From the NCBI GenBank assembly GCA_913054135.1, contig CAJXJK010000005.1, forward strand, positions 206,925 through 270,924: DNA of 64,000 nucleotides, given 5' to 3'. The position numbers were made by a program, and so were the translations under genes. The stretch is from an uncultured Flavobacteriales bacterium. Lineage in GTDB: Bacteria > Bacteroidota > Bacteroidia > Flavobacteriales_D > Crocinitomicaceae. Under the pieces are notes generated by a model. That model was not told the DNA's origin, did not search any database, and saw only the letters and a list, made by a program, of their open reading frames with translations. Positions 4,913 to 33,307 of the stretch are shown here, in pieces; position 1 is the stretch's first letter, and every line of letters begins with the position of its first letter.

Positions 4913-4942
4913 ATAGGGGTAAGTTCATTTTGAGTTGTCATA
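4913..4942 (+). promoter_or_regulatory. Putative ECF-sigma promoter, copy 1
   Basis: ATAGGGGTAA-gttcattttg-AGTTGTCATA; both boxes and spacing are identical to 11004-11033. Confidence 0.75.
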
Positions 4943-4968
4943 TAACCAAAGACACAAAAATTAACAAA

Positions 4969-5700
4969 ATGAAAACTTTAAAAATTACCCTTATCGCATT
5001 AGCCGGATTGGCAACAATTACATCTTGTAAAAAAGGAGGCGTGTTCTGTTATGGAGCAAACGGCAATACAACAACCGAAACTAGAACGGCATCTAATTTT
5101 GATGAAGTAGAACTAGCAATGGCTGGAGATGTTTATATCACAAAAGCCGATAACTATTCAGTGCAAATTGAAGCTTCTGACAACCTTCATGAGATTATAG
5201 AAACGAAAGTGAGCGGATCTGAACTAGAAATTGACCTTCAAAACAATAAATGTTTAAAAGGGAATTCGAACGTCAAGATTTACATAACAATGCCCGAATT
5301 GACAGGCTTAACAGTTTCAGGGTCTGGCGGGATTTATGTTTCTTCATTCTTCGATTCAAACTCAATGGATATTGATATCTCGGGCTCTGGAGAAATTGAA
5401 ATGGATAGCTTAAAGGTGAATTCTTTTGACGCGAATATCTCAGGGTCAGGAGAAATGCTGATTCATGGTGTTGATACTTGCAATAATCAAAAATTGAATA
5501 TTTCGGGTTCTGGAAAATTCAGAGGTTATGATATGCTTACCAAAAGTTCAGACATTGACATATCAGGCTCAGGAAATTGTGAAATCAATGTTGTCAATGA
5601 CATTAAAGCAAGAATTTCAGGAAGCGGTAATGTAATTTATAAAGGTTCTCCTTCAATCGATTCAAATATTTCAGGATCAGGAACAGTAAGACCTTATTAA
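4969..5700 (+). CDS. Head GIN domain (DUF2807-like) lipoprotein
   Basis: Lipobox ITSC; repeated ISGSG/VSGSG beta-helix units; C-terminal ARISGSGNVIYKGSP. Start set at MKTLKIT. Confidence 0.85.
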   Translation: MKTLKITLIALAGLATITSCKKGGVFCYGANGNTTTETRTASNFDEVELAMAGDVYITKADNYSVQIEASDNLHEIIETKVSGSELEIDLQNNKCLKGNSNVKIYITMPELTGLTVSGSGGIYVSSFFDSNSMDIDISGSGEIEMDSLKVNSFDANISGSGEMLIHGVDTCNNQKLNISGSGKFRGYDMLTKSSDIDISGSGNCEINVVNDIKARISGSGNVIYKGSPSIDSNISGSGTVRPY

Positions 5701-5710
5701 TAATTTAATC

Positions 5711-5736
5711 GGTGAGAGAATTTCGGTTCTCTCACC
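5711..5736 (+). terminator. Strong hairpin after the GIN gene, abutting the sigma-factor promoter
   Basis: GGTGAGAGAA-tttcgg-TTCTCTCACC, a perfect 10-bp stem with a weak U-tract. Confidence 0.55.
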
Positions 5737-5737
5737 T

Positions 5738-5745
5738 TATCTTTG
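5738..5745 (+). promoter_or_regulatory. Housekeeping -7 element of the ECF sigma gene
   Basis: TATCTTTG, 5 nt before the GTG start at 5751. Confidence 0.55.
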
Positions 5746-5750
5746 TTTAA

Positions 5751-6308
5751 GTGCAATTAGTGGCTGATAAAATATCCCTCAATCAATTCGAAGATCTTTT
5801 TCGATCTCAGTATTCAGATTTATGTGCTGTAGCGAATAAGTATTTACAGGATTTAGATGCTGCCGAAGAGATTGTTCAATCTGTATTTGTGAAGTTTTGG
5901 GAAAGCCGAGAGAGTCTTCAGATCAAACAATCAATCAAAGGATATTTATTTACAGCAGTGAAGAATAATTGCCTAAATCAAATTAAGCACTTAAAAATTA
6001 AAGAAGAATATAAGGCACATAATCAAAGAGAGATTGCCTTAGAAGAAAGTCAATTTGAAGGAGAATTGGAAGGTTCTGAATTAGCCAAAAAAATCCAAGA
6101 ATCTATAGATAAATTGCCGGATGCTAGAAAGCAAATCTTCGTGCTTAGCCGATATGAAGGCTTGAAGTATAAAGAAATAGCCGAGAAATTAAACATCAGT
6201 ATAAAAACAGTTGAAAATCAAATGGGAAGCGCACTCAAATTCATGAAATCACAACTTTCAGAATATTTAGTAAGCCTATTAATTTTTATCATTTATATCT
6301 GGAAGTAA
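5751..6308 (+). CDS. ECF sigma-70 factor (Bacteroidota FecI-like)
   Basis: Region 2 AEEIVQSVFVKFWE...KGYLFTAVKNNCLN; region 4 IFVLSRYEGLKYKEIAEKLNISIKTVENQMGSALK; hydrophobic C-terminal tail; adjacent to fecR. Confidence 0.93.
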   Translation: MQLVADKISLNQFEDLFRSQYSDLCAVANKYLQDLDAAEEIVQSVFVKFWESRESLQIKQSIKGYLFTAVKNNCLNQIKHLKIKEEYKAHNQREIALEESQFEGELEGSELAKKIQESIDKLPDARKQIFVLSRYEGLKYKEIAEKLNISIKTVENQMGSALKFMKSQLSEYLVSLLIFIIYIWK

Positions 6309-6338: not shown

Positions 6339-7346
6339 ATGTCAGAAAACAACTACATAGAATTCAATGAAGCAACCCTAATGGCTTATATCAACAAAGA
6401 GTTGAGTGATGAGCATATGGGAATGGTAGATCATTGGCTGACACTTTCTGATGATAACCAAGAAGAGATGGATAAATTGAAGAAGATATGGGACGGAAGT
6501 AAATTGGTAGCTGTGACCCCAGTTACTGTTGACACTGAAAGTGCATTGAAAAATGTACTTTCCCAAATTGATACCTCTGAAGAAAAAGTAATCCCAATTG
6601 AAAAGCCAACTAATTTCAGAAGAATATTCTTGTCTGCGGCAGCAATTATGATAGCATTAATTGGGGTCGTAGGATTACTCAATTACATTAATGGATCAGT
6701 TGAACAAATGAGTTTGACGGCGAGCTCGGGGATTTTAGAAAGTGAACTTCCTGATGGTACTTCAGTGAGCCTTAATGAAAACGCAACCTTAAAATATCAA
6801 AGTGAATTCTCTTCAAATGAAAGAAGAGTTGCGCTTGAAGGAGAGGCATTTTTTGATGTTGAACGAAACGAAGAAAAACCTTTTATCATTGATCTACATC
6901 ATGAGTCATATGTGAAAGTTTTAGGAACTTCATTCAATATTGATGCAGATGATAAGAAAGAGTTCACTACGGTATATGTTAAAAGCGGAAAGGTTGAATT
7001 CGGAACAGAGAAGGACCAAGTGACACTCAATGCTGGCGAAACTGGAGTAATGAATAATCTCACTGGTGAAGTTGAGAGGCGAGTAAATGAAAGCGAAGAG
7101 ATGAAAAGCATTTACTGGAAAACGCAAGAACTTGATTTTGATGACATCAAACTCTCTGAAACTATTGAGATATTGGAAGATGTTTTTGAAGTAAAAATTG
7201 ATCTGAATTGCATAGAAAAAGGAGACGATAGATTGGTGTCACATCACAAAGATGAGACGCTAGATGAAATTCTAAATGTTATTGCAACTGTTCTAGACCT
7301 TGATCTTATTCAAACCAGAGTATCTTATCAATTAAATTGTGATTAA
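6339..7346 (+). CDS. FecR-family anti-sigma factor
   Basis: N-terminal anti-sigma helices, single TM (ILSAAAIMIALIGVVGLL), LPDGTSVSLN, RRVALEGEAFFDV, VKVLGTSFN, VKSGKVEF, C-terminal STN-binding domain. Confidence 0.93.
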   Translation: MSENNYIEFNEATLMAYINKELSDEHMGMVDHWLTLSDDNQEEMDKLKKIWDGSKLVAVTPVTVDTESALKNVLSQIDTSEEKVIPIEKPTNFRRIFLSAAAIMIALIGVVGLLNYINGSVEQMSLTASSGILESELPDGTSVSLNENATLKYQSEFSSNERRVALEGEAFFDVERNEEKPFIIDLHHESYVKVLGTSFNIDADDKKEFTTVYVKSGKVEFGTEKDQVTLNAGETGVMNNLTGEVERRVNESEEMKSIYWKTQELDFDDIKLSETIEILEDVFEVKIDLNCIEKGDDRLVSHHKDETLDEILNVIATVLDLDLIQTRVSYQLNCD

Positions 7347-9195
7347 AAAAGCACTTTTGTTCCTATTGGTATTGCTTTGCGTTCAATCTGCAGATGCAAA
7401 AAAAATGCTTTTAGATAGAGTCATTTCAATTGAGATTAAGGCAACTCCAATCAAGAGAATCTTGAAGGCAATTGAAGAAAAAGCACAAGTTAAATTCTCC
7501 TACAATCCTGATCTCATTGATGAGAATAAAATTGTTGATTTAGTGATAAAAGAGAAGTCCATCCGTGATGGTCTTTCTATGATTTTTGACGGAACAGTTC
7601 GTTTTAAAGAGGTAGGGAATCACATTGTTCTCTTGCAAAATGAATCAAAAGAGCAAATCAAAGAACGTAGAAAAGAAAAGGGGGATTACATTTTTCAAGG
7701 CTTAATAAGTGATAAGAGAACAGGCAAAGCTATTCAAGGCGCCAGCGTATATGATGTTGATGCCAGGTTTGCAGCTGTTTCTCATGCTAACGGAAGGTAT
7801 AGGTTAGAAATTCCGAAAGAAGAAAGTGTAAGAAGTTTATACTTCAAGAAAAAGGGCTATGAGGCACAAGTCATTGTAATTAGGGCAGATGATGCCTTTT
7901 CTTGGGTAAACAATATCAGCTTAGTTCCCATTGAAATTGATGTCAATAAAATTGGGGTGTCGGCCATTGAGAAAGTAGAAGTGCCAATTGAAGAAAGAGC
8001 GCTTTCAGGGGCTTTGGTTTCTGAAGATACTTATATCCATTCTGAAAATTTAGAAGAAATAGATGAGGTGCGTTTTGCCCAAATATCTTTAGTGCCTTCG
8101 GTTGGTATTGGCTCAAACCTTTCCACAAATGGTTTGATCACCAATAATTTATCTCTTAACATCTTAGCAGGATATTCAAACGGAGTGGATGGCGTTGAAG
8201 TTGGAGGGCTCATGAACATGACAAAGGGAGATGTAAGTGGAGTTCAAGTTGCTGGAATTACCAGTTTAGTGGGTGGTGATGTTCAAGGGGTGCAAGCTGC
8301 AGGAATCGCAAATCTCATTCAAGGTAATTTTGACGGAACTCAAATTTCAGGTGTGAGTGGAATTGTGAAGGGAGATTTCATTGGATTTCAAGGATCAGGA
8401 ATCTCCTCAATAGTTAGAGGCGGTTATCGCGGCATTCAGTTAAGCGGTATTAGTAATGTCGCTTTTAAAGATTCGTATGGTTTCCAGTTTGCAGGTATTT
8501 CAAATACAGTTTTTGACACCTTAGTTGGAGGGCAAGTTTCTGGAATTGCCAACTTCGCCTTAAAAGGTTCTAACTATTTGCAAGTATCCGGCATCACAAA
8601 TCTTGCCGAGAACAATTATGGATTACAAGTAACTGGAATCTTTAATAGAGCTAAACATAACGGAGGCCTTCAACTTGGTTTGGTTAACCTGAGCAAAACA
8701 AGTACGGGAATCGCTATTGGCCTTTTCAATTATGTCCGTAAAGGATACCATAAAACAGAGGTGGCTGCAAATGAAATATTCCCGGTCAATCTAACCTTTA
8801 AAACAGGGGTTCAAAGATTATACAATACTTATCATTTCGGAGTTAAATTTGGTCCGAGCAGAGCGTATGCTGCTGGTTTAGGATTCGGAACTTTTTTCAG
8901 GCTCAACAATAAAATGACAATCAGTCTTGATCTATCTGGTGATATGGCCTATGAACCAGAATTGAATGTTAATGGTTTTTCTCAGCTTTATAAACTGTCT
9001 TCGACATTTGATTATCAAATCGCAAAATGGGTAACTGTATTTGGCGGTCCATCTTTCAATGTAAACGTCATGCAATTTCAAGATGATACTGGTCAATACA
9101 ATTCTAACCTCTCATTCAATCCTTTCTACAATGAGCAATTCACTAATGCAGGTGTACAGTGTTGGGTGGGCGGGCAAATTGGATTTAGGTTTTAA
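7339..9195 (+). CDS. STN + CarboxypepD_reg-like + Gly-rich GxQxxGxxN repeat (LA_2272-like) + C-terminal OM barrel protein
   Basis: Signal peptide; STN (LLDRVISIEIKATPIKRILKAIEEKAQVKFSYNPDLI); GLISDKRTGKAIQGASVYD; about a dozen ~15-aa repeats; ends GGQIGFRF. No TonB-receptor plug or 22-strand barrel length. GTG start overlaps the fecR stop. Confidence 0.8.
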   Translation: MIKKALLFLLVLLCVQSADAKKMLLDRVISIEIKATPIKRILKAIEEKAQVKFSYNPDLIDENKIVDLVIKEKSIRDGLSMIFDGTVRFKEVGNHIVLLQNESKEQIKERRKEKGDYIFQGLISDKRTGKAIQGASVYDVDARFAAVSHANGRYRLEIPKEESVRSLYFKKKGYEAQVIVIRADDAFSWVNNISLVPIEIDVNKIGVSAIEKVEVPIEERALSGALVSEDTYIHSENLEEIDEVRFAQISLVPSVGIGSNLSTNGLITNNLSLNILAGYSNGVDGVEVGGLMNMTKGDVSGVQVAGITSLVGGDVQGVQAAGIANLIQGNFDGTQISGVSGIVKGDFIGFQGSGISSIVRGGYRGIQLSGISNVAFKDSYGFQFAGISNTVFDTLVGGQVSGIANFALKGSNYLQVSGITNLAENNYGLQVTGIFNRAKHNGGLQLGLVNLSKTSTGIAIGLFNYVRKGYHKTEVAANEIFPVNLTFKTGVQRLYNTYHFGVKFGPSRAYAAGLGFGTFFRLNNKMTISLDLSGDMAYEPELNVNGFSQLYKLSSTFDYQIAKWVTVFGGPSFNVNVMQFQDDTGQYNSNLSFNPFYNEQFTNAGVQCWVGGQIGFRF

Positions 9196-9295: not shown

Positions 9296-10246
9296 ATGAA
9301 ACTGCTCTTCCTCATATTTGCTATTATCCCGTTTACCATCTTTGCCCAAAAGGCTAATGACTTAGGAGTTTATGATTATTATGCTCTTCATCAAAAAAAT
9401 GAACCAAAACAAGGATTCATTGTCCTTTCTGATATGTTCCCTTTTGACGAATTCAAAGGTGATAACAATATTATTGCACCAGAACATCTAGGTGAATTTG
9501 AGTTTTCGAATGATAACTATCATGAGTTAAAGGGTGAAAACCGAGACCGATTTTTAGGGGCCCTGAAAATTCAAGAAACAGACTTTCTTTTCGTCAACAA
9601 TCTAAATCTAAATAAGATTAAATCGTTCAAGGTGAGTCAGCTAAAACTAACAGCCTTCTTGAGTCCATATCGTCCTGATATTACTGTGCATAATTGGGAT
9701 TACCTCATAGGTTTTGAGTTGGGTTCTGTTCAAATGCCATTTAATCCTCCAGATATTTATGGTCAAACAATCTTTTCATGCGTCGGCGCAAAGAATCCTT
9801 TTAATCAAGGCAAAGCAGAACCAATGAAGTGGAAAAAAGTTAATCAAAGTGAGTTTATTTGGAAGCTAGAGAAAGATGAAACTCCAAAACATATGCTAGA
9901 CATTAAGTACAAGAGCGTCTATAAATTCAAGTGGAGCAAATTAAATTATTACGTTCGTGAAATCTATGCAGGTGATTTTCTCTATGGTTATTACCTTGTT
10001 GTTACAAAGTCTAAATCAGGAGAGAAGGTGAACTCAATGCTCTTTTTTGAAAGCGAAGGCACTTACCTTCAACCCTTGAATGGTCAAAAAAATAGTTCTG
10101 GAGACCTGCAGTTCACCGGCTATATCTTCAAAGATAAACCACCAATCATTTATGGTTTTCAATCAAACTCTTTTGGATGCCCTTACATTTCCTTCGCAGA
10201 TGATACCGATAATTACCTTTGGTTAAAGTGCGATAATAGACACTAA
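9296..10246 (+). CDS. Exported hypothetical protein
   Basis: 316-aa ORF with signal peptide MKLLFLIFAIIPFTIFA; ends FGCPYISF...WLKCDNRH. Confidence 0.7.
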   Translation: MKLLFLIFAIIPFTIFAQKANDLGVYDYYALHQKNEPKQGFIVLSDMFPFDEFKGDNNIIAPEHLGEFEFSNDNYHELKGENRDRFLGALKIQETDFLFVNNLNLNKIKSFKVSQLKLTAFLSPYRPDITVHNWDYLIGFELGSVQMPFNPPDIYGQTIFSCVGAKNPFNQGKAEPMKWKKVNQSEFIWKLEKDETPKHMLDIKYKSVYKFKWSKLNYYVREIYAGDFLYGYYLVVTKSKSGEKVNSMLFFESEGTYLQPLNGQKNSSGDLQFTGYIFKDKPPIIYGFQSNSFGCPYISFADDTDNYLWLKCDNRH

Positions 10247-10280
10247 GAAAATCTTAACTTAGTGAGCTCAATAAAAGCCC

Positions 10281-10973
10281 ATGGGAATCGGAAAATACTT
10301 TGGAGGCGTTTGGAAAATATTCGCTTCAATCACGCTCACCTTATTCATTTTAAGTGTAATCATTTATGGATTAGACTTGAATGTAAGCCAACCTGAAACG
10401 AATAAGCAAACGATTACGAGCCATCTTGAAAATGAACGCTCAACAAGACATTATTTTGAATTGAACGATTCTATTTGTTTTGTTGTCGATACCGAAGAAG
10501 CAAAAGAAGACCGTGTGGTCACCATGAAGTCATATACCACAAACTTTGTCCCTTTCTGTTATTTCTGTGGATATAATCGAGGAACGTATCGTTATGAATA
10601 CGGGATCTACATTGATGAACCGTACATGTATGGTGATTTTGTTTACACCAAAATCCCTTATGATTATGATGACGGAGAAATTCCATTCGGCAGCTTTCAA
10701 ACGTACAATTTCAAAACAGGCAAAGATGGTTATGTTGAGCAATTAGAAGATATCGGGCCAGACGCAGCAAATAACAAATACAGGGTCACTGAAGATTATC
10801 TCTTAGAGAATAACGGCCTAATTTCTTACTACGAAAATGAATCTTGTCAAATCGCCTTTGGGGTCATTTTTGTTTTGGTTGCAGGTTTATTATTAGGAGC
10901 AATGATTGGTGTTCCAATTAGAGTTTATCGATTTAGAAAGCAAGCTAAAAAAGAGGCTCAAGGCGAATCTTAA
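10281..10973 (+). CDS. Hypothetical membrane protein (N- and C-terminal TM helices, Tyr-rich loop)
   Basis: 230-aa ORF with two hydrophobic segments flanking a soluble domain. Confidence 0.65.
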   Translation: MGIGKYFGGVWKIFASITLTLFILSVIIYGLDLNVSQPETNKQTITSHLENERSTRHYFELNDSICFVVDTEEAKEDRVVTMKSYTTNFVPFCYFCGYNRGTYRYEYGIYIDEPYMYGDFVYTKIPYDYDDGEIPFGSFQTYNFKTGKDGYVEQLEDIGPDAANNKYRVTEDYLLENNGLISYYENESCQIAFGVIFVLVAGLLLGAMIGVPIRVYRFRKQAKKEAQGES

Positions 10974-11003: not shown

Positions 11004-11033
11004 ATAGGGGTAAACGTTCTTTCAGTTGTCATA
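11004..11033 (+). promoter_or_regulatory. Putative ECF-sigma promoter, copy 3
   Basis: ATAGGGGTAA-acgttctttc-AGTTGTCATA, 24 nt upstream of the TonB receptor ATG. Confidence 0.75.
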
Positions 11034-11057: not shown

Positions 11058-13421
11058 ATGAAAACAACAAAAATTCTATTATTACTTTCTATCCTTTTTA
11101 TCGGAGGATCATCTTTTTCTCAAGGTTTAACTCAAACGCTTAGAGGAACAATTATTGACTTTGATTCTAAGGTTCCGCTCATTGGAGCTAAAGTAATCGT
11201 TTTCGGAACAGATCCTTTGCAAGGTTCAGTAACTGACCTCAATGGAGATTTTAAAATTGAAAATGTCAAAGTAGGTCGGGCAGCTATTCAAATTACTTCC
11301 ACAGGATATAAGCCCATTTCAATGCCTTCAGTTCTAATCGAGTCAGGGAAAGAGAAAATCCTGAATCTTCAAATGACAGAAGACATCAAAGTACTTGGGG
11401 CAGTTGATGTAAAAGCCAATAAAGATAAATCAGAGTCTATCAACAAAATGGCAACAACATCAGCCAAAACATTTACAGTTGAAGAAACAAACAGATATGC
11501 CGGTTCATTAAATGATCCTGCCAGAATGGTCTCTGGTTTTGCAGGTGTCACGGGGGATGCAGAAGGAGATAACGACATTGTCGTGAGAGGGAACTCCCCG
11601 CGTGGCATCCTTTGGAGATTAGAAGGAATTGATATTCCAAATCCAAATCACTTTTCTGATAACGGAGCAACCGGTGGTCCTATAAACGCATTGAACGGAT
11701 CGGTTTTAGCCAACTCTGATTTCTTTTCAGGAGCCTTTGCACCTGAATATGGTAATGCACTCTCAGGAGTGTTTGACGTCAAAATGAGAACAGGAAACAA
11801 TGAAAAAAGAGAGTATTCATTCTCTGCTGGTGTTATCGGTTTAGACGGAACATTAGAAGGACCTTTTTCTAAAAACTCAAGAGCATCATACATGGTGAAC
11901 TATAGGTATTCATCAATCGCATTGTTGGATAAAGCTGGTATTCTTGATTTTGACGGAATTCCAATTTATCAAGACGCCGCATTTAAGCTCAACTTTCCAA
12001 CTAAAAAGGCCGGAACTTTCACCCTAATTGGTTTGGGTGGAATGAGTAAAATTGATCAAACAGATCAAAATGATTCTACTGGTGAAGTGTACGGTAGGTA
12101 CGACTTCAAAGCCAACTTGGGAGTAGCAGGATTAAAGCACACATACATTGTGAATCCTAAAGTTTATGTGAAAAGTTTTATCTCAGCATCTACTCAATAT
12201 AATGGCGGAGAAGGGCAGTTTTTAAATTCAGATTCAGTCTTGTTCTTATCCGAACGAGAAGGGAATACTGATAACCAATTAAAGGCGCAATCTATCGTGA
12301 ATTATAAGATGAACAAGAAGAACATCTTTCAAGTAGGTGCCACCTACACGCATTTCAACTACAATTTCTATTACGAAGACGACTATGATGATGAAGACGG
12401 AATTATGACACGTCATAATAATTCAAAAGGAGATGCCGATATGCTGCAATCATTCTTGAGTTGGAAGTACAGAATTACCAATGATCTGACGGTCGTGTCA
12501 GGAGTCCATCATACCCATTACCTATTGAACAACAATTTTAAAGTTGAACCGAGAGTTGGGATGAAATGGCAACTAAATCCAAGACACAGTTTATCTGCTG
12601 GTTTCGGGATGCATTCAAAACTAGAATCACCTTCGGTTTATTTGTACAATGAATTGCAAGAAGATGGATCATATAAATATCCAAACAGAGATTTAGATCT
12701 AACAAAGAGTACTCATTATGTTTTAGGATATGGTTTCAGAATCTCTGAACACTTACACTTGAAGTCTGAAGTATATTATCAAGCTTTATCAAACATTCCA
12801 GTAGCTAAGGATACTGCAGCTGAATCAGGCTTCTTTAGTTTCGTGAATTGGTCTTCAGGAGTTCCAGATTTTGAATTGGTAAATGAAGGTACGGGTCATA
12901 ATTATGGAGCTGAATTGACATTGGAAAGATTCTTTGAAAACAACTTCTATTTCTTGTTAACGGGCTCGATTTATAAATCACAATACAAGGGGTCTGATGG
13001 TATTTTGAGAGATACGCGATATGACGCCAATTTCGCTTCTAATTTCTTGGCAGGTAAAGAATTCAAATTTGGTAAAAAGAAGAATTTAAATAAGACATTC
13101 GGAATCAACACTAAGGTATCGTTGATTGGTGGAAACAGATTTACTCCAATTGATTTACAAGCTTCTCAAGATGCCGGATATACGGTAAGAGATTGGGACA
13201 ATCCTTGGGGTAAAAAAGGAGAGAATGTGTTCTTCATCAATTTAGGATTGACATACAGATGCGACATGAAAAGAGCAAGTCACTCTTTCAAAATTGACAT
13301 TCAAAATCTTACAAATAATCAATCTGTTGTTTCAGAATATTATAACGGCAGAACAGGAACTATAGACACTGATACGCAACTGTCTTTCATTCCAAACATC
13401 ATTTATACAATTAAATTTTAA
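11058..13421 (+). CDS. TonB-dependent receptor with CarboxypepD_reg-like N-terminus (no STN)
   Basis: Signal peptide; QTLRGTIIDFDSKVPLIGA; plug NDPARMV...VVRGNSPRGILWRLEGIDIPNPNHF; FFSGAFAPEYGNALSGVFD; C-terminal PNIIYTIKF. Confidence 0.9.
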   Translation: MKTTKILLLLSILFIGGSSFSQGLTQTLRGTIIDFDSKVPLIGAKVIVFGTDPLQGSVTDLNGDFKIENVKVGRAAIQITSTGYKPISMPSVLIESGKEKILNLQMTEDIKVLGAVDVKANKDKSESINKMATTSAKTFTVEETNRYAGSLNDPARMVSGFAGVTGDAEGDNDIVVRGNSPRGILWRLEGIDIPNPNHFSDNGATGGPINALNGSVLANSDFFSGAFAPEYGNALSGVFDVKMRTGNNEKREYSFSAGVIGLDGTLEGPFSKNSRASYMVNYRYSSIALLDKAGILDFDGIPIYQDAAFKLNFPTKKAGTFTLIGLGGMSKIDQTDQNDSTGEVYGRYDFKANLGVAGLKHTYIVNPKVYVKSFISASTQYNGGEGQFLNSDSVLFLSEREGNTDNQLKAQSIVNYKMNKKNIFQVGATYTHFNYNFYYEDDYDDEDGIMTRHNNSKGDADMLQSFLSWKYRITNDLTVVSGVHHTHYLLNNNFKVEPRVGMKWQLNPRHSLSAGFGMHSKLESPSVYLYNELQEDGSYKYPNRDLDLTKSTHYVLGYGFRISEHLHLKSEVYYQALSNIPVAKDTAAESGFFSFVNWSSGVPDFELVNEGTGHNYGAELTLERFFENNFYFLLTGSIYKSQYKGSDGILRDTRYDANFASNFLAGKEFKFGKKKNLNKTFGINTKVSLIGGNRFTPIDLQASQDAGYTVRDWDNPWGKKGENVFFINLGLTYRCDMKRASHSFKIDIQNLTNNQSVVSEYYNGRTGTIDTDTQLSFIPNIIYTIKF

Positions 13422-13423
13422 TC

Positions 13424-14584
13424 ATGAAAAAGATATTCATAATAGGCGCTATCGCGCTCACATCACTTAGTAGTTTTTCTCAGGAAGATTCAACGCTAAC
13501 AAGAGCAACACAAGTTTCATTTATTTATCCTATCGGAACCAATGGAGTTGATGCAACCAAATACACAAACAACTTTTCATTCAATGTCCTTTATGGCTTA
13601 AACGGAGGCTTGAACGGTGTAGAAATTGGTGGACTAGTAAACTCAAATATAGGTGCTGTGAATGGCGCGCAGTTTGCAGGAATCGCTAACATCAACGGGG
13701 CAACAGCACATGGGTTTATGGGCGCCGGAATAGCAAACGTAATTAAGGATTCTTCAAATTCAATTTCAGGTGCTGGTATCGCAAATGTCTGTGGCGGAAA
13801 CTTTGTCGGATTGCAAATGGCAGGAATTGCAAACGCAGTAAAAGGTGATTTCTTAGGTGGTCAAATGTCAGGTATAGCAAATTTCAATCATGGCGATTTT
13901 AAAGGGGCACAACTTAGCGGAATTGCAAATACAAGTACGGGTAATTTTTATGGATTGCAGGGTTCTGGAATTGCAAATTTTGTTGGAGGAGATTTACAAG
14001 GTGCTCAGGTTGGATTGGTTAACCGTGCAAGAAAAATCAAAGGATTTCAATTGGGATTAATCAATGTTGCAAATGATTTTGAAAGTGGTGTTCCGCTTGG
14101 CTTGATCTCTTATGTTAAAAATGGATATCATGCCGTTGAGTTGGCTGGTGGTGATGCCGTTTACGGAAATCTAAATTTCAAATTAGGTGTAGAAAAGTTG
14201 TATAATATCTATAAGATTGGATTCGCACCCAATGGGTCTGAACAATACTTTACTTACGGTTTAGGGTTAGGAAGCAAACTGAATTTTACCGAAAAATTCG
14301 GTTTATCCATTGAAGGTTCTGCTTCGCACATTGTTCATCAAAACTTCAATCCAAGATTAGATATGTTGAACAAATTAGACGTCAACTTCAGATATGCATT
14401 GGGTGACCATTTTGACCTTTTTGCAGGGCCGTCTTTCAACGTATACTTATCACAACATGACCCTGAAACAGAATCTTCAGCACTCAATGTTCCTTATTCA
14501 TTGTTCACTCACAATTGGGGTAACGGAGAAGGTCAAACTTATATGTGGCTTGGAGCAAATGCTGGCATCTGCGTTAACTTCTAA
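13424..14584 (+). CDS. Gly-rich repeat (LA_2272-like) OM protein; paralog of the C-terminal half of 7339-9195
   Basis: QVSFIYPIGTN...TNNFSFNVLYGLNGGLNGVEIGGLVN, GxQxxGIAN repeats, GLISYVKNGYHAVE...FKLGVEKLYNIY, terminal GICVNF. Confidence 0.8.
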   Translation: MKKIFIIGAIALTSLSSFSQEDSTLTRATQVSFIYPIGTNGVDATKYTNNFSFNVLYGLNGGLNGVEIGGLVNSNIGAVNGAQFAGIANINGATAHGFMGAGIANVIKDSSNSISGAGIANVCGGNFVGLQMAGIANAVKGDFLGGQMSGIANFNHGDFKGAQLSGIANTSTGNFYGLQGSGIANFVGGDLQGAQVGLVNRARKIKGFQLGLINVANDFESGVPLGLISYVKNGYHAVELAGGDAVYGNLNFKLGVEKLYNIYKIGFAPNGSEQYFTYGLGLGSKLNFTEKFGLSIEGSASHIVHQNFNPRLDMLNKLDVNFRYALGDHFDLFAGPSFNVYLSQHDPETESSALNVPYSLFTHNWGNGEGQTYMWLGANAGICVNF

Positions 14585-14612: not shown

Positions 14613-14640
14613 AGGCCGACTTTTGTAGTCGGCCTTTTTT
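14613..14640 (+). terminator. Intrinsic terminator
   Basis: AGGCCGACT-tttgt-AGTCGGCCT followed by TTTTT. Confidence 0.85.
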
Positions 14641-14810: not shown

Positions 14811-14849
14811 AAAGAGGCCAATCAAAATTTTGATTGGCCTCTTTTTTTT
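14811..14849 (+). terminator. Intrinsic terminator
   Basis: AAAGAGGCCAATCAAA / TTTGATTGGCCTCTTT long inverted repeat plus T-run. Confidence 0.85.
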
Positions 14850-14851
14850 GA

Positions 14852-14881
14852 GTAGGGGTATTGTATTGGGAATTCGTCTTA
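14852..14881 (+). promoter_or_regulatory. Putative ECF-sigma promoter, copy 4 (degenerate)
   Basis: GTAGGGGTAT-tgtattggga-ATTCGTCTTA; GGGGTA and GTC.TA cores with the same spacing as copies 1-3. Confidence 0.5.
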
Positions 14882-15006: not shown

Positions 15007-15237
15007 ATGTCGTATCATATAAATCTGAAGGAGAGAATCCAAAACAATGAATTGATTGGCTTTGAGATTTTTCAAGATTATCAAGGCAAAGCAGAAAAAA
15101 TGCTGCTTTACTTTCAGTCAGAACCTAAGATTAGACCTATCCTCAAGAACAAAATTGAAGAGTATAAGGTAATGCTCAAAGACATTAATACTCGTTTTGA
15201 GCAAATCACAACAGGCTTTTCACCAATATCACATTAG
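15007..15237 (+). CDS. Small hypothetical protein, paralog of 20945-21142
   Basis: 76 aa; 22/51 ungapped identities to the 20945 product; followed by hairpin AAAGCT-atct-AGCTTT plus T-run. Confidence 0.7.
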   Translation: MSYHINLKERIQNNELIGFEIFQDYQGKAEKMLLYFQSEPKIRPILKNKIEEYKVMLKDINTRFEQITTGFSPISH

Positions 15238-32341: not shown

Positions 32342-33307
32342 ATGAAGGCAGCAATAGTAACAAATTACGGAAAACCAGAAGTATTAGAATTAAGAGAGGT
32401 TCAAAAACCATCTCCGAAAGAAAATCAAATCTTATTAAAGATTCACACCTCTTCAGTGACTTCAGGAGATGCTAGAATTAGAAGAGCAGATCCATATGTT
32501 ATCAGATTGATTTTCGGATTTAAGAGACCTAGAAAATCAATTCTGGGTGTAGTGGTTGCAGGAGAGGTGGAGTCAGTTGGAGATAAGGTAAGTAAGTTTA
32601 AAGTTGGAGACAAGGTATTTGGGACAACTGGAATGTCATTCGGAGCGCACGCTCAATACCAATGCATTTCTGAAGAAGGAACCTTGGCTTTGATTCCAGA
32701 GAATATGTCTTACGAAGATGCGGCGGCGATTCCATTTGGAGGTACTGCTGCGCTTCACTTTCTTAGAAAAGGTAATGTTTCAAAAGGGCAAAAAGTATTG
32801 GTTTTTGGAGCATCAGGTGCATTGGGTACGGCAGCTATTCAATTAGCTAAAGAACGTGGGGCCGAAGTAACAGCAGTTTGTAGTGGTAAAAATGCTGAAA
32901 TGGTAGCTGAATTAGGAGCAGATATTGTCATTGATTACACAAAAGAGAATTTTACCGAGAACGGAGAAATGTATGATGTCATTTTTGACACCATTGGAAA
33001 AAGTTCATTCACTAAAGGGATGAAATCTTTAACCAAGAAAGGAACTATGCTTTTGGCAAGTGCAAACATGGGATTAATGATTAGAGGCGGGCTGACTTCT
33101 ATGTTCGGTAAGAAGAAAGTGATTTCAGGAGTGATTAAGGAAACGGCAAACGATATGAAATTCTTCAAAAAACTGATCGAAGCCGGAAAATTAAAAGCAG
33201 TAATTGACAAAGTTTATCCTTTAGAAGAAATAGCTAGAGCACATACACATGTTGATGCAGGTCACAAGAAAGGAAATGTCATTATTAGTATGAATCACGC
33301 TTCATAA
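32342..33307 (+). CDS. NAD(P)-dependent MDR oxidoreductase (zinc-independent, quinone-reductase-like)
   Basis: AGEVE.VG..V..FKVGD.VFG, AAAIPFGG.AA, VLVFGASGALG.AAIQLAK, VIDKVYPLEEI..AH. Confidence 0.88.
   Translation: MKAAIVTNYGKPEVLELREVQKPSPKENQILLKIHTSSVTSGDARIRRADPYVIRLIFGFKRPRKSILGVVVAGEVESVGDKVSKFKVGDKVFGTTGMSFGAHAQYQCISEEGTLALIPENMSYEDAAAIPFGGTAALHFLRKGNVSKGQKVLVFGASGALGTAAIQLAKERGAEVTAVCSGKNAEMVAELGADIVIDYTKENFTENGEMYDVIFDTIGKSSFTKGMKSLTKKGTMLLASANMGLMIRGGLTSMFGKKKVISGVIKETANDMKFFKKLIEAGKLKAVIDKVYPLEEIARAHTHVDAGHKKGNVIISMNHAS

What the first reader, a model, noticed from the sequence alone, without database searches (positions are those of the whole stretch)
7339..9195. STN signalling domain on a non-TonB Gly-repeat/barrel protein
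After STN and CarboxypepD_reg-like domains the protein has roughly a dozen ~15-aa GxQxxGxxNxxxGxxx units (predicted beta-solenoid, LA_2272-like), then a ~150-aa amphipathic beta region ending in Phe. How a TonB-independent outer-membrane protein would transmit a signal to FecR is not covered by the standard FecA model. It might act through a partner TBDT or report envelope stress or surface contact.
Basis: partly seen in the sequence, partly recalled or inferred. Interest (0 to 1): 0.72.

Follow-up and report, generated by a model that had tools for sequence, protein, structure and literature searches.

The report
Split TonB-receptor signalling subunit
This gene encodes an outer-membrane-anchored protein that carries the signalling domain normally found on nutrient-uptake receptors but has no uptake channel; comparison with related genomes suggests it is a detached signalling subunit for a neighbouring receptor, a widespread variant of bacterial cell-surface signalling that I could not find described.

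Summary
ORF 7339-9195 (618 aa) has, in order:
- a signal peptide
- an STN domain
- a SusC-type CarboxypepD_reg (NTE) domain
- a disordered linker
- about 12.5 coils of a 16-aa beta-solenoid
- an 8-stranded OmpA-like barrel ending in Phe

There is no plug and no 22-strand barrel. The solenoid must face the periplasm, not the cell surface.

The protein belongs to a large uncharacterised Bacteroidota family. Every locus examined has an ECF sigma and a FecR anti-sigma directly upstream.

A conserved ECF-type promoter motif, TAGGGGTA-N16-TTGTC, defines the regulon:
- a DUF2807 lipoprotein
- an STN-less TonB-dependent transporter (11058-13421)
- an STN-less paralogue of the solenoid-barrel (13424-14584)

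In that transporter family, sigma/FecR-linked loci fall into two groups. Eleven have an STN-less transporter plus this protein. Two have a transporter that carries STN itself and lack this protein.

Best reading: a split transducer, in which this protein supplies the STN signal in trans. The stimulus and TonB dependence are untested. VreA and Dma1 are partial precedents. I rate it a new variant of a known kind, of moderate to high interest.

The parts
4914..4939 (+). ECF-type promoter motif P1 (TAGGGGTAAGTTCATTTTGAGTTGTC) upstream of the DUF2807 gene
   Evidence: The window holds 3 matches against 0.32 expected; 0 of 100 shuffles reached 3. The same motif lies at the same place in the related loci.
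4969..5700 (+). DUF2807 (Toastrack-type) lipoprotein. The likely start is the ATG at 4969 (MKTLKITLIALAGLATITSC), not the TTG at 4930, which overlaps the -10 element
   Evidence: Pfam DUF2807, E 1.7e-44. It is conserved upstream of sigma in 15 loci and lies next to the TBDT in other loci.
5711..5745 (+). Terminator-like hairpin (5711-5736) followed by TATCTTTG (5738-5745), a Bacteroidetes housekeeping-type -7 box, just before the sigma gene
   Evidence: One search finds the hairpin. TAnnTTT(G/A) lies 5-22 nt before the sigma start in 15 of 15 loci, and a hairpin is present in 11 of 15. Reading it as a promoter rests on my own knowledge of the consensus.
5751..6308 (+). ECF sigma factor (Bacteroidetes FecI-like type)
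   Evidence: TIGR02985 at 181 bits (cut-off 126), plus Sigma70_r2 and r4_2.
6339..7346 (+). FecR-type anti-sigma factor with a FecR_C (STN-binding) domain. Its stop codon overlaps the start of the next gene
   Evidence: Pfam FecR E 3.9e-15 and FecR_C E 2.5e-5. It lies directly upstream of the STN protein in all 22 loci centred on that protein.
7339..7398 (+). Signal peptide of the STN protein (aa 1-20, ...VQSADA|KK)
   Evidence: Read from the sequence. AlphaFold2 models a helix at aa 2-19.
7420..7638 (+). STN signalling domain (aa 28-100)
   Evidence: Pfam STN E 1.8e-5, found in 73 of 78 relatives. AlphaFold2 gives a beta-alpha-beta / beta-alpha-beta-beta fold. It aligns colinearly with the STN of classical transducers L065 and L085.
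7684..7923 (+). NTE, a CarboxypepD_reg (transthyretin-like) domain (aa 116-195)
   Evidence: Pfam E 6.7e-6, found in 78 of 78 relatives. PDB profile hits 9hfj_A and 6ytc_A. Foldseek hit 5aq0. hhalign to the NTE of the neighbouring TBDT gives E 9.5e-5.
7924..8064 (+). Low-confidence linker (aa 196-242), at the position where transducers carry the TonB box. No canonical TonB box and no plug are present
   Evidence: pLDDT 52-65. This is the highest-entropy segment. Pfam finds nothing at E<=10.
8065..8736 (+). Beta-solenoid of about 12.5 sixteen-residue coils (aa 243-466), inferred to face the periplasm
   Evidence: The PDB holds no fold match better than E 1.7, and all weak hits are beta-helices. 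The N-terminal cap is the most conserved part of the protein.
8737..9195 (+). 8-stranded OmpA-like outer-membrane beta-barrel (aa 467-618, ends ...GFRF)
   Evidence: AlphaFold2 strands at 470-478, 483-490, 495-503, 509-521, 526-538, 548-562, 565-578 and 605-617. Foldseek hits are to 8-strand barrels.
11005..11030 (+). ECF-type promoter motif P2 (TAGGGGTAAACGTTCTTTCAGTTGTC) upstream of the TBDT
11058..13421 (+). STN-less TonB-dependent transporter (NTE, plug, barrel), the proposed partner
   Evidence: Pfam CarbopepD_reg_2, Plug and TonB_dep_Rec_b-barrel, with no STN. Orthologues follow the STN protein in 13 of 22 loci. The distribution of STN is complementary.
13424..14584 (+). STN-less paralogue (signal peptide, solenoid, 8-strand barrel; 386 aa), co-transcribed with the TBDT
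   Evidence: 34% identical to aa 231-618 of the STN protein, E 9e-57. LA_2272_repeat at 37.8 bits. Present in 17 of 22 loci.

Best explanation
The protein is the signalling subunit of a split TonB-dependent transducer.

Shown or modelled:
- After export it is anchored in the outer membrane by a C-terminal 8-stranded barrel.
- A rigid beta-solenoid, about 60 Å long if each coil adds about 4.8 Å, projects into the periplasm.
- A flexible linker then carries an NTE domain and an STN domain.

Inferred from the gene overlap, the FecR_C domain and the FoxA/FoxR paradigm:
- In the resting state this contact protects FecR from proteolysis.

Inferred from the complementary distribution of STN:
- The stimulus arises at the STN-less TonB-dependent transporter encoded downstream, and possibly also at its solenoid-barrel paralogue.
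- The STN protein associates with these and changes or loses its contact with FecR when the transporter is loaded or energised.

Inferred from the promoter motif:
- FecR is then degraded and the ECF sigma is released.
- The sigma transcribes from TAGGGGTA-N16-TTGTC promoters the DUF2807 lipoprotein and the transporter/paralogue operon.
- In some relatives it also transcribes FecR and the STN protein.

The system would therefore work like FecA/FecR/FecI, but with the signalling domain on a separate outer-membrane scaffold.
For: Architecture.

Linkage to the regulators:
- Sigma and FecR lie directly upstream in 22 of 22 loci, across Crocinitomicaceae, Putridiphycobacter, Prolixibacteraceae, Aureibacter and unnamed metagenomic lineages.
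- This holds down to 25-33% identity of the STN protein.
- The FecR and STN genes overlap.

Promoter motif:
- 3 hits in the window against 0.32 expected.
- 35 hits in 404 kb of related loci. All but two (one weak, one inside a gene) lie upstream of DUF2807, of the TBDT or paralogue, or of FecR.
- The motif also precedes the TBDT or paralogue in metagenomic loci.

Link to the transporter:
- TBDT orthologues follow the STN protein in 13 of 22 loci.
- In a separate sample of 80 loci chosen by the TBDT, 13 show FecR. Eleven of these have the STN protein beside the TBDT, and all 10 of those TBDTs that I scanned lack STN. Two have no STN protein, and there the TBDT itself reads STN, NTE, plug.
- The N-terminus of the STN protein aligns colinearly with those two transducers (E 2e-8 and 3e-6).
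- The STN-less paralogue sits next to the TBDT even without sigma/FecR (L025, L026, L084). The C-terminal module is therefore a TBDT-associated protein in its own right.

Resting-state protection of the anti-sigma by STN is published for FoxA/FoxR (PMC11637429).
Against: - No direct evidence exists for any protein-protein contact, for localisation, or for expression. No RNA runs were found.
- Five loci have the STN protein and the paralogue but no TBDT nearby (L002, L011, L013, L016, L017). One (L010) has a hydrolase lipoprotein and a small OMP as output instead. The TBDT is therefore not an obligatory neighbour.
- Eight TBDT loci have the STN protein but no paralogue within 7 kb.
- How a separate barrel protein would sense the state of the transporter is unknown.
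- No canonical TonB box was found.
- The complementary pattern rests on only two classical cases (Fisher p about 0.01).
Confidence: 0.5

Rival explanations
1. Autonomous envelope-state sensor, a non-covalent analogue of Dma1. The outer-membrane-anchored stalk holds the FecR C-terminus. Outer-membrane damage, vesiculation, failed BAM assembly or a change in periplasmic width breaks the contact and triggers FecR proteolysis. The transporter and the paralogue are only outputs.
For: - The system persists without an adjacent TBDT in 5-6 loci.
- The conserved partner DUF2807 belongs to the Toastrack superfamily, which recurs in envelope-stress modules (PMC11237479).
- Dma1 shows that Bacteroidota couple anti-sigma factors to 8-strand outer-membrane barrels.
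- Surface loops are variable and periplasmic parts are conserved.
- The solenoid-barrel also carries other N-terminal domains, for example a caspase domain in P0348. It therefore looks like a generic anchor.
Against: It does not explain why an STN on the TBDT and the separate STN protein are mutually exclusive. It also does not explain why a nutrient-type transporter is the most conserved output, at 75-84% identity between close loci.
Confidence: 0.25
2. Periplasmic ligand sensor. The solenoid binds the transporter's substrate, or a product of it, after import. The paralogue has the same binding module without a signalling domain.
For: - The solenoid N-cap is the most conserved region and is shared by both paralogues.
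- The solenoid faces the periplasm by topology.
- Sensing of imported products in the periplasm is common in Bacteroidota PULs (established knowledge).
Against: No binding pocket or known ligand-binding fold was found. The Gly/Gln/Asn ladder residues that are conserved are structural. No enzyme genes that would indicate a substrate are conserved nearby.
Confidence: 0.12
3. Surface-exposed repeat adhesin or contact sensor, built like an autotransporter with the solenoid outside the cell.
For: NCBI names the repeat 'LA_2272 family surface repeat-containing protein'. Pfam describes DUF2807 as an autotransporter-adhesin head.
Against: - An 8-strand barrel has no translocation pore.
- The STN and NTE domains must be periplasmic to reach FecR. 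The chain would then have to cross the membrane twice without any membrane-spanning segment in the linker.
- Periplasmic turns are short and the putative outer loops are long, which fits the standard topology.
Confidence: 0.05

Closest known systems
TonB-dependent transducers of cell-surface signalling (FecA, FoxA, PupB with FecR/FecI-type partners)
   Same: It has an N-terminal STN domain. The sigma, FecR and receptor genes come in the same order. FecR carries the FecR_C domain that binds STN. The ECF sigma is predicted to drive a TonB-dependent transporter.
   Different: It has no TonB box, plug or 22-strand barrel. The STN is tethered to the outer membrane by a solenoid and an 8-strand barrel, and the transporter is a separate STN-less protein.
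STN-bearing relatives of the neighbouring TBDT (loci L065 and L085, uncharacterised)
   Same: They have the same STN-then-NTE N-terminal module and the same sigma-FecR context.
   Different: In them the module is fused to the plug and barrel, giving a classical one-piece transducer.
VreA of the P. aeruginosa PUMA3 system (PMC2729926)
   Same: It is an STN signalling domain on a protein that lacks the transporter barrel, within a sigma/anti-sigma module.
   Different: VreA is a small, mostly soluble periplasmic protein with a TolA/TonB-like C-terminal domain. It has no NTE, solenoid or membrane barrel, and it is proteobacterial.
[quoted passage not shown]
   Same: An anti-sigma factor is physically coupled to an 8-stranded outer-membrane barrel in Bacteroidota.
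   Different: In Dma1 the coupling is covalent, within one polypeptide joined by a disordered linker. Here it would be non-covalent, through STN and FecR_C. Dma1 has no STN, NTE or solenoid.
SusC-like transporters (NTE domain, Bt1763; PMC7782687)
   Same: It has a CarboxypepD_reg-type NTE domain, confirmed by PDB profile hits to SusC and TBDT NTE structures.
   Different: It has no plug or barrel and no SusD partner. The order here is STN then NTE, whereas that paper reports NTE before STN in B. theta SusCs.
NCBIfam NF047436 LA_2272 family surface repeat proteins
   Same: It has the same 16-aa Gly/Gln/Asn repeat. The paralogue passes the model's cut-off.
   Different: That family is defined only by the repeat and has no experimental characterisation. 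The STN and NTE fusion and the regulatory context are not part of the definition.

Membership tests
TonB-dependent transducer (FecA-type CSS receptor) | N-terminal STN signalling domain | tested here: met
   Pfam STN E 1.8e-5, below the gathering score in this sequence; 73 of 78 relatives hit it. AlphaFold2 gives the expected fold.
TonB-dependent transducer (FecA-type CSS receptor) | TonB box between the N-terminal domains and the plug | tested here: inconclusive
   The linker at aa 196-242 is disordered and poorly conserved and has no DEVVV-like motif. hhalign merely extends the NTE alignment over the TBDT's TonB-box region.
TonB-dependent transducer (FecA-type CSS receptor) | Plug domain | tested here: not met
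   0 of 78 relatives hit Pfam Plug. The isolated linker-solenoid-barrel gives no hit at E<=10. hhalign against the TBDT family finds nothing.
TonB-dependent transducer (FecA-type CSS receptor) | 22-stranded beta-barrel | tested here: not met
   AlphaFold2 shows 8 C-terminal strands, and Foldseek hits are to 8-strand barrels. 0 of 78 relatives hit TonB_dep_Rec_b-barrel.
TonB-dependent transducer (FecA-type CSS receptor) | Encoded next to an ECF sigma and a FecR-type anti-sigma | tested here: met
   for the window; 22 of 22 related loci.
SusC-like transporter | CarboxypepD_reg-type NTE domain | tested here: met
SusC-like transporter | Plug and barrel with an adjacent SusD-like gene | tested here: not met
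   There is no plug or barrel. No SusD-like ORF lies in the cluster, since the Pfam scan of the neighbouring genes finds none.
LA_2272 repeat family (NF047436) | Score at or above the 25-bit cut-off on the repeat model | tested here: not met
   The target scores 22 bits. The paralogue scores 37.8 bits, and the two proteins are 34% identical over 392 aa. The repeat is therefore homologous although the target formally falls below the cut-off.
[quoted passage not shown] | Anti-sigma domain, TM helix and 8-strand barrel in one polypeptide | tested here: not met
   The anti-sigma factor (FecR, 6339-7346) is a separate gene. Only the 8-strand barrel is shared.
VreA-like receptor (PUMA3) | STN plus a TolA/TonB-like C-terminal domain, soluble in the periplasm | tested here: not met
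   STN is present, but the C-terminal part is a solenoid and a barrel.
OmpA-like 8-stranded outer-membrane barrels | 8 antiparallel amphipathic strands with a C-terminal aromatic beta-signal | tested here: met
   The model and Foldseek agree (prob 1.0; TMt 0.58-0.64 to Opa60, OprF-N and a designed 8-strand barrel). The protein ends in GFRF. No sequence-family membership was found, as Pfam gives nothing. Membrane location itself is not testable here.
Autotransporter (type V secretion) | Barrel of 12 or more strands with a pore-traversing linker and a surface passenger | tested here: not met
   The barrel has 8 strands and the solenoid abuts strand 1 directly.

The most novel reading that the evidence does not exclude
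The solenoid plus 8-strand barrel would be a previously unrecognised, very large class of outer-membrane-anchored periplasmic stalk (about 9,800 clusters at 50% identity). It would display different N-terminal domains, such as STN-NTE or a caspase, at a fixed distance below the outer membrane. In this locus it would act as a TonB-independent mechanical sensor of envelope geometry or outer-membrane integrity. [quoted passage not shown]
Probability: 0.2. Interest if true: 0.8.

Novelty: new variant of a known kind. Interest (0 to 1): 0.62.

Why it matters
Cell-surface signalling is the textbook case of signal transfer across both membranes. Its unresolved question is how events in the transporter's plug and TonB box change the contact between STN and the anti-sigma factor.

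Here nature appears to have separated the signalling domain from the transporter and mounted it on another outer-membrane scaffold. In sister loci the same two parts are still fused. That pairing offers a ready-made comparison for testing what the STN contact does on its own.

The work also yields three other things:
- It assigns a context and a testable role to a very large unannotated Bacteroidota outer-membrane family.
- It gives a promoter motif and a regulon for one group of Bacteroidota ECF sigma factors.
- It points to cultured hosts (Paracrocinitomix mangrovi, Putridiphycobacter roseus, Aureibacter tunicatorum) in which to test the model.

Tried and rejected
1. Linker as a vestigial plug or TonB box. 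The segment LSGALVSEDTYIHSENLEE...AQISLVPSV looked to me like the start of a SusC plug. Pfam gives no Plug hit even at E<=10 on the isolated region. hhalign against the neighbouring TBDT family aligns only the NTE. I dropped the idea.

2. A close solved analogue of the solenoid. A solenoid-only AlphaFold2 model (pLDDT 86.8) has no PDB match better than E 1.7. The weak hits are generic beta-helices: GlmU, LpxA, ice-binding proteins and TPS domains.

3. Searching the big protein index with the N-terminal STN-NTE fragment alone returned nothing, so that search was wasted. The comparison with one-piece transducers was made later through loci L065 and L085.

4. Expression evidence. Only DNA metagenomes hold the sequence, at low word share, and no RNA runs were found.

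5. Literature searches. Those for LA_2272, 'STN domain-containing protein', VC2662 and FecR/carboxypeptidase-regulatory contexts found no description of this architecture. VC2662 is only an uncharacterised V. cholerae protein, and the match to its family is far below the cut-off.

6. Source names for distant relatives. All were 'hypothetical protein' or absent.

7. The 316-aa and 230-aa ORFs between the STN gene and the TBDT promoter as parts of the system. They are absent from every syntenic locus.

8. The first alignment (A1) was too diverse for the locus scan. A subset of closer sequences (A2) was used instead.
Full report
**1. The observation**

The window carries a + strand cluster. Its genes, in order:
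- DUF2807 protein, 4930/4969-5700
- ECF sigma, 5751-6308
- FecR-type anti-sigma, 6339-7346
- the ORF in question, 7339-9195 (618 aa, GTG start overlapping the FecR stop by 8 nt)
- two unconserved ORFs, 9296-10246 and 10281-10973
- a 787-aa TonB-dependent transporter (TBDT), 11058-13421
- a 386-aa ORF, 13424-14584

Pfam finds STN (aa 52-98, E 1.8e-5) and CarbopepD_reg_2 (aa 120-186, E 6.7e-6) in the target. Both are below the gathering scores. The assignment is secure at family level. Of 78 full-length relatives, 73 hit STN and 78 hit CarbopepD_reg_2, and none hits Plug or TonB_dep_Rec_b-barrel. A profile of the family also finds the solved NTE domains of a SusC homologue (9hfj_A, 2.4e-6) and of a TBDT (6ytc_A).

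The repeats are real. The period is 16 aa and the unit is xxGdxxGxQxxGIxNx. About 12.5 units cover aa 267-466. Self-identity at lag 16 is 0.30, against a maximum of 0.19 over all lags in 5000 shuffles. The NCBIfam LA_2272_repeat model scores 22 bits on the target (cut-off 25) and 37.8 bits on the 386-aa ORF.

**2. Structure**

AlphaFold2 with the 78-sequence alignment gives pLDDT 88.4 and pTM 0.69. The model shows:
- a signal-peptide helix
- an STN fold, aa 28-100
- a transthyretin-like NTE, aa 116-195
- a low-confidence linker, aa 196-242
- a regular coil with two strands (7 + 4 residues) per 16 aa, up to aa 466
- eight longer strands at 470-478, 483-490, 495-503, 509-521, 526-538, 548-562, 565-578 and 605-617

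Foldseek against the PDB returns only two kinds of match. One is transthyretin-like domains (5aq0, the same top match reported for the Bt1763 NTE in PMC7782687). The other is 8-stranded outer-membrane barrels: OprF-N 4rlc (TMt 0.64), the designed 8-strand barrel 6x9z (TMt 0.61), Opa60, NspA, OmpA and OmpX. It returns no plug or 22-strand barrel as a whole.

A solenoid-only model (pLDDT 86.8, pTM 0.79) has no significant PDB neighbour. The best E-value is 1.7, and all weak hits are beta-helix proteins. The repeat region is therefore a beta-solenoid without a close solved analogue.

The strands show alternating hydrophobic residues, and the protein ends in ...GQIGFRF, a typical beta-signal. This I read directly from the sequence.

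Topology is inferred. Bacterial barrels have an even number of strands with both termini in the periplasm (established knowledge). The turns at 491-494, 522-525 and 563-564 are short, and the loops on the other side are longer (539-547 and 579-604). The solenoid runs straight into strand 1. Solenoid, NTE and STN should therefore all be periplasmic. At about 4.8 Å per coil, the solenoid would be a rod about 60 Å long.

Column entropy supports this. The solenoid N-cap (aa 241-320), the solenoid-barrel junction (aa 441-500) and the STN are the most conserved parts. The linker and the putative surface loops are the least conserved.

**3. A large family with a fixed regulatory context**

The protein index holds 551 relatives of the full-length protein, among only the 8000 candidates scored. 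They are 600-700 aa long and come from Crocinitomicaceae, other Flavobacteriales and Bacteroidales. When named at all they are called 'hypothetical' or 'STN domain-containing protein'.

The 386-aa ORF is a paralogue without STN and NTE. It is 34% identical over 392 aa, E 9e-57, and it has 689 relatives of its own.

A profile of the short form finds 9,817 clusters (at 50% identity) at E<=1e-3, and 3,289 at E<=1e-30. Lengths among the best 150 are bimodal: about 330-470 aa and about 600-800 aa. Of ten longer or intermediate hits scanned, four have STN (three of them with CarbopepD_reg_2), five of 460-553 aa have no Pfam hit, and one (P0348) has a caspase domain instead. The solenoid-barrel thus behaves as a general C-terminal anchor for N-terminal periplasmic domains.

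I examined 22 loci centred on the STN protein:
- the window
- 17 GTDB genomes
- Aureibacter tunicatorum
- three distant metagenomic loci

In all 22 a FecR gene lies directly upstream, usually overlapping. An ECF sigma lies upstream of FecR wherever the contig reaches that far.

**4. The regulon**

A motif, (A/G)TAGGGGTA-N~16-(A/G)TTGTC(A/T)T, occurs in the window at three places (0.32 expected, 0 of 100 shuffles reach 3):
- 4914-4939, before DUF2807
- 11005-11030, before the TBDT
- 14853-14878, in a weaker form

Across 404 kb of related loci a regular expression finds 35 copies. All but two (the weak copy at 14853 and one inside a gene at 32546) lie on the coding strand in front of DUF2807, the TBDT or the paralogue, or between sigma and FecR. 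It also precedes a stand-alone short form in Flammeovirga pectinis (L018). In metagenomic loci it precedes the TBDT or the paralogue.

Its form, a G-rich -35 element and a GTC-containing -10 element, is that of ECF promoters (my own knowledge). I take it to be the target of the adjacent sigma, which is an inference.

The sigma gene itself is preceded in 15 of 15 loci by TAnnTTT(G/A). In 11 of 15 there is also a hairpin after DUF2807. This fits a basal housekeeping promoter for sigma, FecR and the STN protein. The consensus is recalled from memory, not tested.

Outputs vary between loci:
- TBDT plus paralogue: window and 10 loci (L001, L003-L007, L009, L014, L015, L022)
- TBDT only: L021, L023
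- paralogue only: L002, L011, L013, L016, L017
- an alpha/beta-hydrolase lipoprotein plus a small OMP: L010

**5. The link to the transporter**

The window's TBDT has an NTE, a plug and a barrel but no STN. Its orthologues are much better conserved than the STN protein: 75-84% identical where the STN protein is 50-64%.

I scanned metagenomes with an alignment of this TBDT and obtained 80 loci at 37-70% identity. Findings:
- Eighteen have a solenoid-barrel gene adjacent.
- Thirteen show a FecR gene.
- In 11 of these 13 the STN-solenoid protein lies beside the TBDT, directly upstream in all but L060 and L068. All 10 of those TBDTs that I scanned lack STN.
- In the other two (L065, L085) there is no such protein. 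There the TBDT itself is 889-897 aa and reads STN (aa 72-126), then CarbopepD_reg (aa 137-235), then plug.

The N-terminus of the window protein aligns colinearly with those two (E 2e-8 and 3e-6).

So in one transporter family, sigma/FecR-linked loci carry the STN either on the transporter or on the separate solenoid-barrel protein, and never on both or on neither. That is 11:0 against 0:2, about p = 0.01 by Fisher's exact test.

The STN-less short form also sits beside the TBDT without any regulator in L025, L026 and L084. The C-terminal module is therefore a TBDT neighbour in its own right. The STN protein looks like that module with a transducer's N-terminus attached.

**6. Mechanism**

Shown here: the domain architecture, the conservation of the context, the promoter motif, and the complementary distribution of STN.

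Inferred:
- The STN binds FecR_C, as in classical systems. In FoxA/FoxR this contact exists without signal and protects the anti-sigma factor from proteolysis (PMC11637429).
- The STN protein associates with the STN-less TBDT and/or the paralogue and reports their state.
- FecR is then degraded and the sigma activates the motif-bearing promoters.

I put this split-transducer model at about 0.5. The main rival, at about 0.25, is an autonomous envelope sensor analogous to Dma1 (PMC10927553). It is favoured by the loci without a TBDT and by the Toastrack-type DUF2807 partner (PMC11237479). It does not explain the complementary distribution. Periplasmic ligand sensing by the solenoid (0.12) and a surface adhesin or contact sensor (0.05) are less likely.

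TonB independence is not established. There is no canonical TonB box, but dependence could be indirect, through the transporter.

**7. Comparison with what is known**

The protein fails membership of the TonB-dependent transducers and of SusC-like proteins, because plug and barrel were tested and are absent. Even so, it probably works like the signalling half of a transducer.

Partial precedents:
- VreA (PUMA3) has an STN without a barrel but is soluble and has a TolA-like C-terminal domain (PMC2729926).
- Dma1 couples an anti-sigma factor covalently to an 8-strand barrel.

The ECF classification paper describes the Bacteroidetes FecI-like group ECF240 but does not mention this context in its main text (PMC7826278). 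Full-text searches found no description of the architecture.

I therefore rate it a new variant of a known kind. The gene family sits in databases as hypothetical, but the split arrangement, the periplasmic solenoid stalk and the regulon appear not to have been described.

**8. Limits**

Everything beyond sequence and predicted structure is comparative inference. Specifically:
- I have no expression data and could not inspect model coordinates.
- I have no multimer predictions.
- The strand count of the barrel and the topology rest on one AlphaFold2 model plus Foldseek matches.
- The complementary-distribution argument has only two one-piece cases.
- The identity of the sigma that reads the motif is assumed from adjacency.

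Noticed in passing
window 9296-10973: Two ORFs lie between the STN gene and the TBDT promoter: a 316-aa protein with a signal peptide and a 230-aa protein with two hydrophobic segments. Neither has a Pfam or NCBIfam hit. Both are absent from every syntenic locus, where the TBDT or paralogue follows within 30-1000 bp. They look like a lineage-specific insertion.
   Followed up: partly
window 14853-14878: A third, weaker copy of the ECF-type motif (TAGGGGTATTGTATTGGGAATTCGTC) lies after two tandem terminator hairpins (14613-14635 and 14811-14844) that follow the paralogue. Only a 76-aa ORF (15007-15237) follows it. The copy is not seen at this position in related loci, so it may be chance.
   Followed up: partly
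window 4930-4969: The mechanical ORF start of the DUF2807 gene (TTG at 4930) overlaps the -10 element of the promoter motif. The ATG at 4969 gives a lipoprotein-type signal peptide (MKTLKITLIALAGLATITSC) and is the more plausible start.
   Followed up: partly
window 5711-5745 and the same position in L001-L015: A hairpin follows DUF2807, and a TAnnTTT(G/A) box lies 5-22 nt before the sigma start codon in 15 of 15 loci. This suggests a separate basal promoter and a nearly leaderless sigma mRNA.
   Followed up: partly
P0348 (802 aa): This relative of the solenoid-barrel module carries an N-terminal caspase (Peptidase_C14) domain instead of STN-NTE. It would be a protease tethered under the outer membrane by the same stalk.
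   Followed up: no
L010 10922-12628: In this Crocinitomicaceae MAG the ECF-type motif after the STN gene drives a 360-aa lipoprotein with a GHSFGG serine-hydrolase motif and a 192-aa small beta-barrel-like protein. There is no TBDT or paralogue.
   Followed up: partly
L065 4742-7432 and L085 774-3440: These are one-piece transducers of the same TBDT family with the domain order STN, NTE, plug. The order differs from the statement in PMC7782687 that the NTE precedes the STN in all B. theta SusCs.
   Followed up: partly
L035, L042, L046, L060, L061, L068, L071, L078, L093: The DUF2807 (Toastrack) lipoprotein gene lies directly next to the TBDT, before or after it, in many metagenomic loci. In some of these no sigma/FecR is visible. 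It may be a structural partner of the transporter rather than a stress protein.
   Followed up: no
L068 6912-6972: Two copies of the ECF-type motif sit back to back on opposite strands. They lie between a divergent DUF2807-sigma-FecR-STN operon and the TBDT gene, forming a compact bidirectional control region.
   Followed up: no
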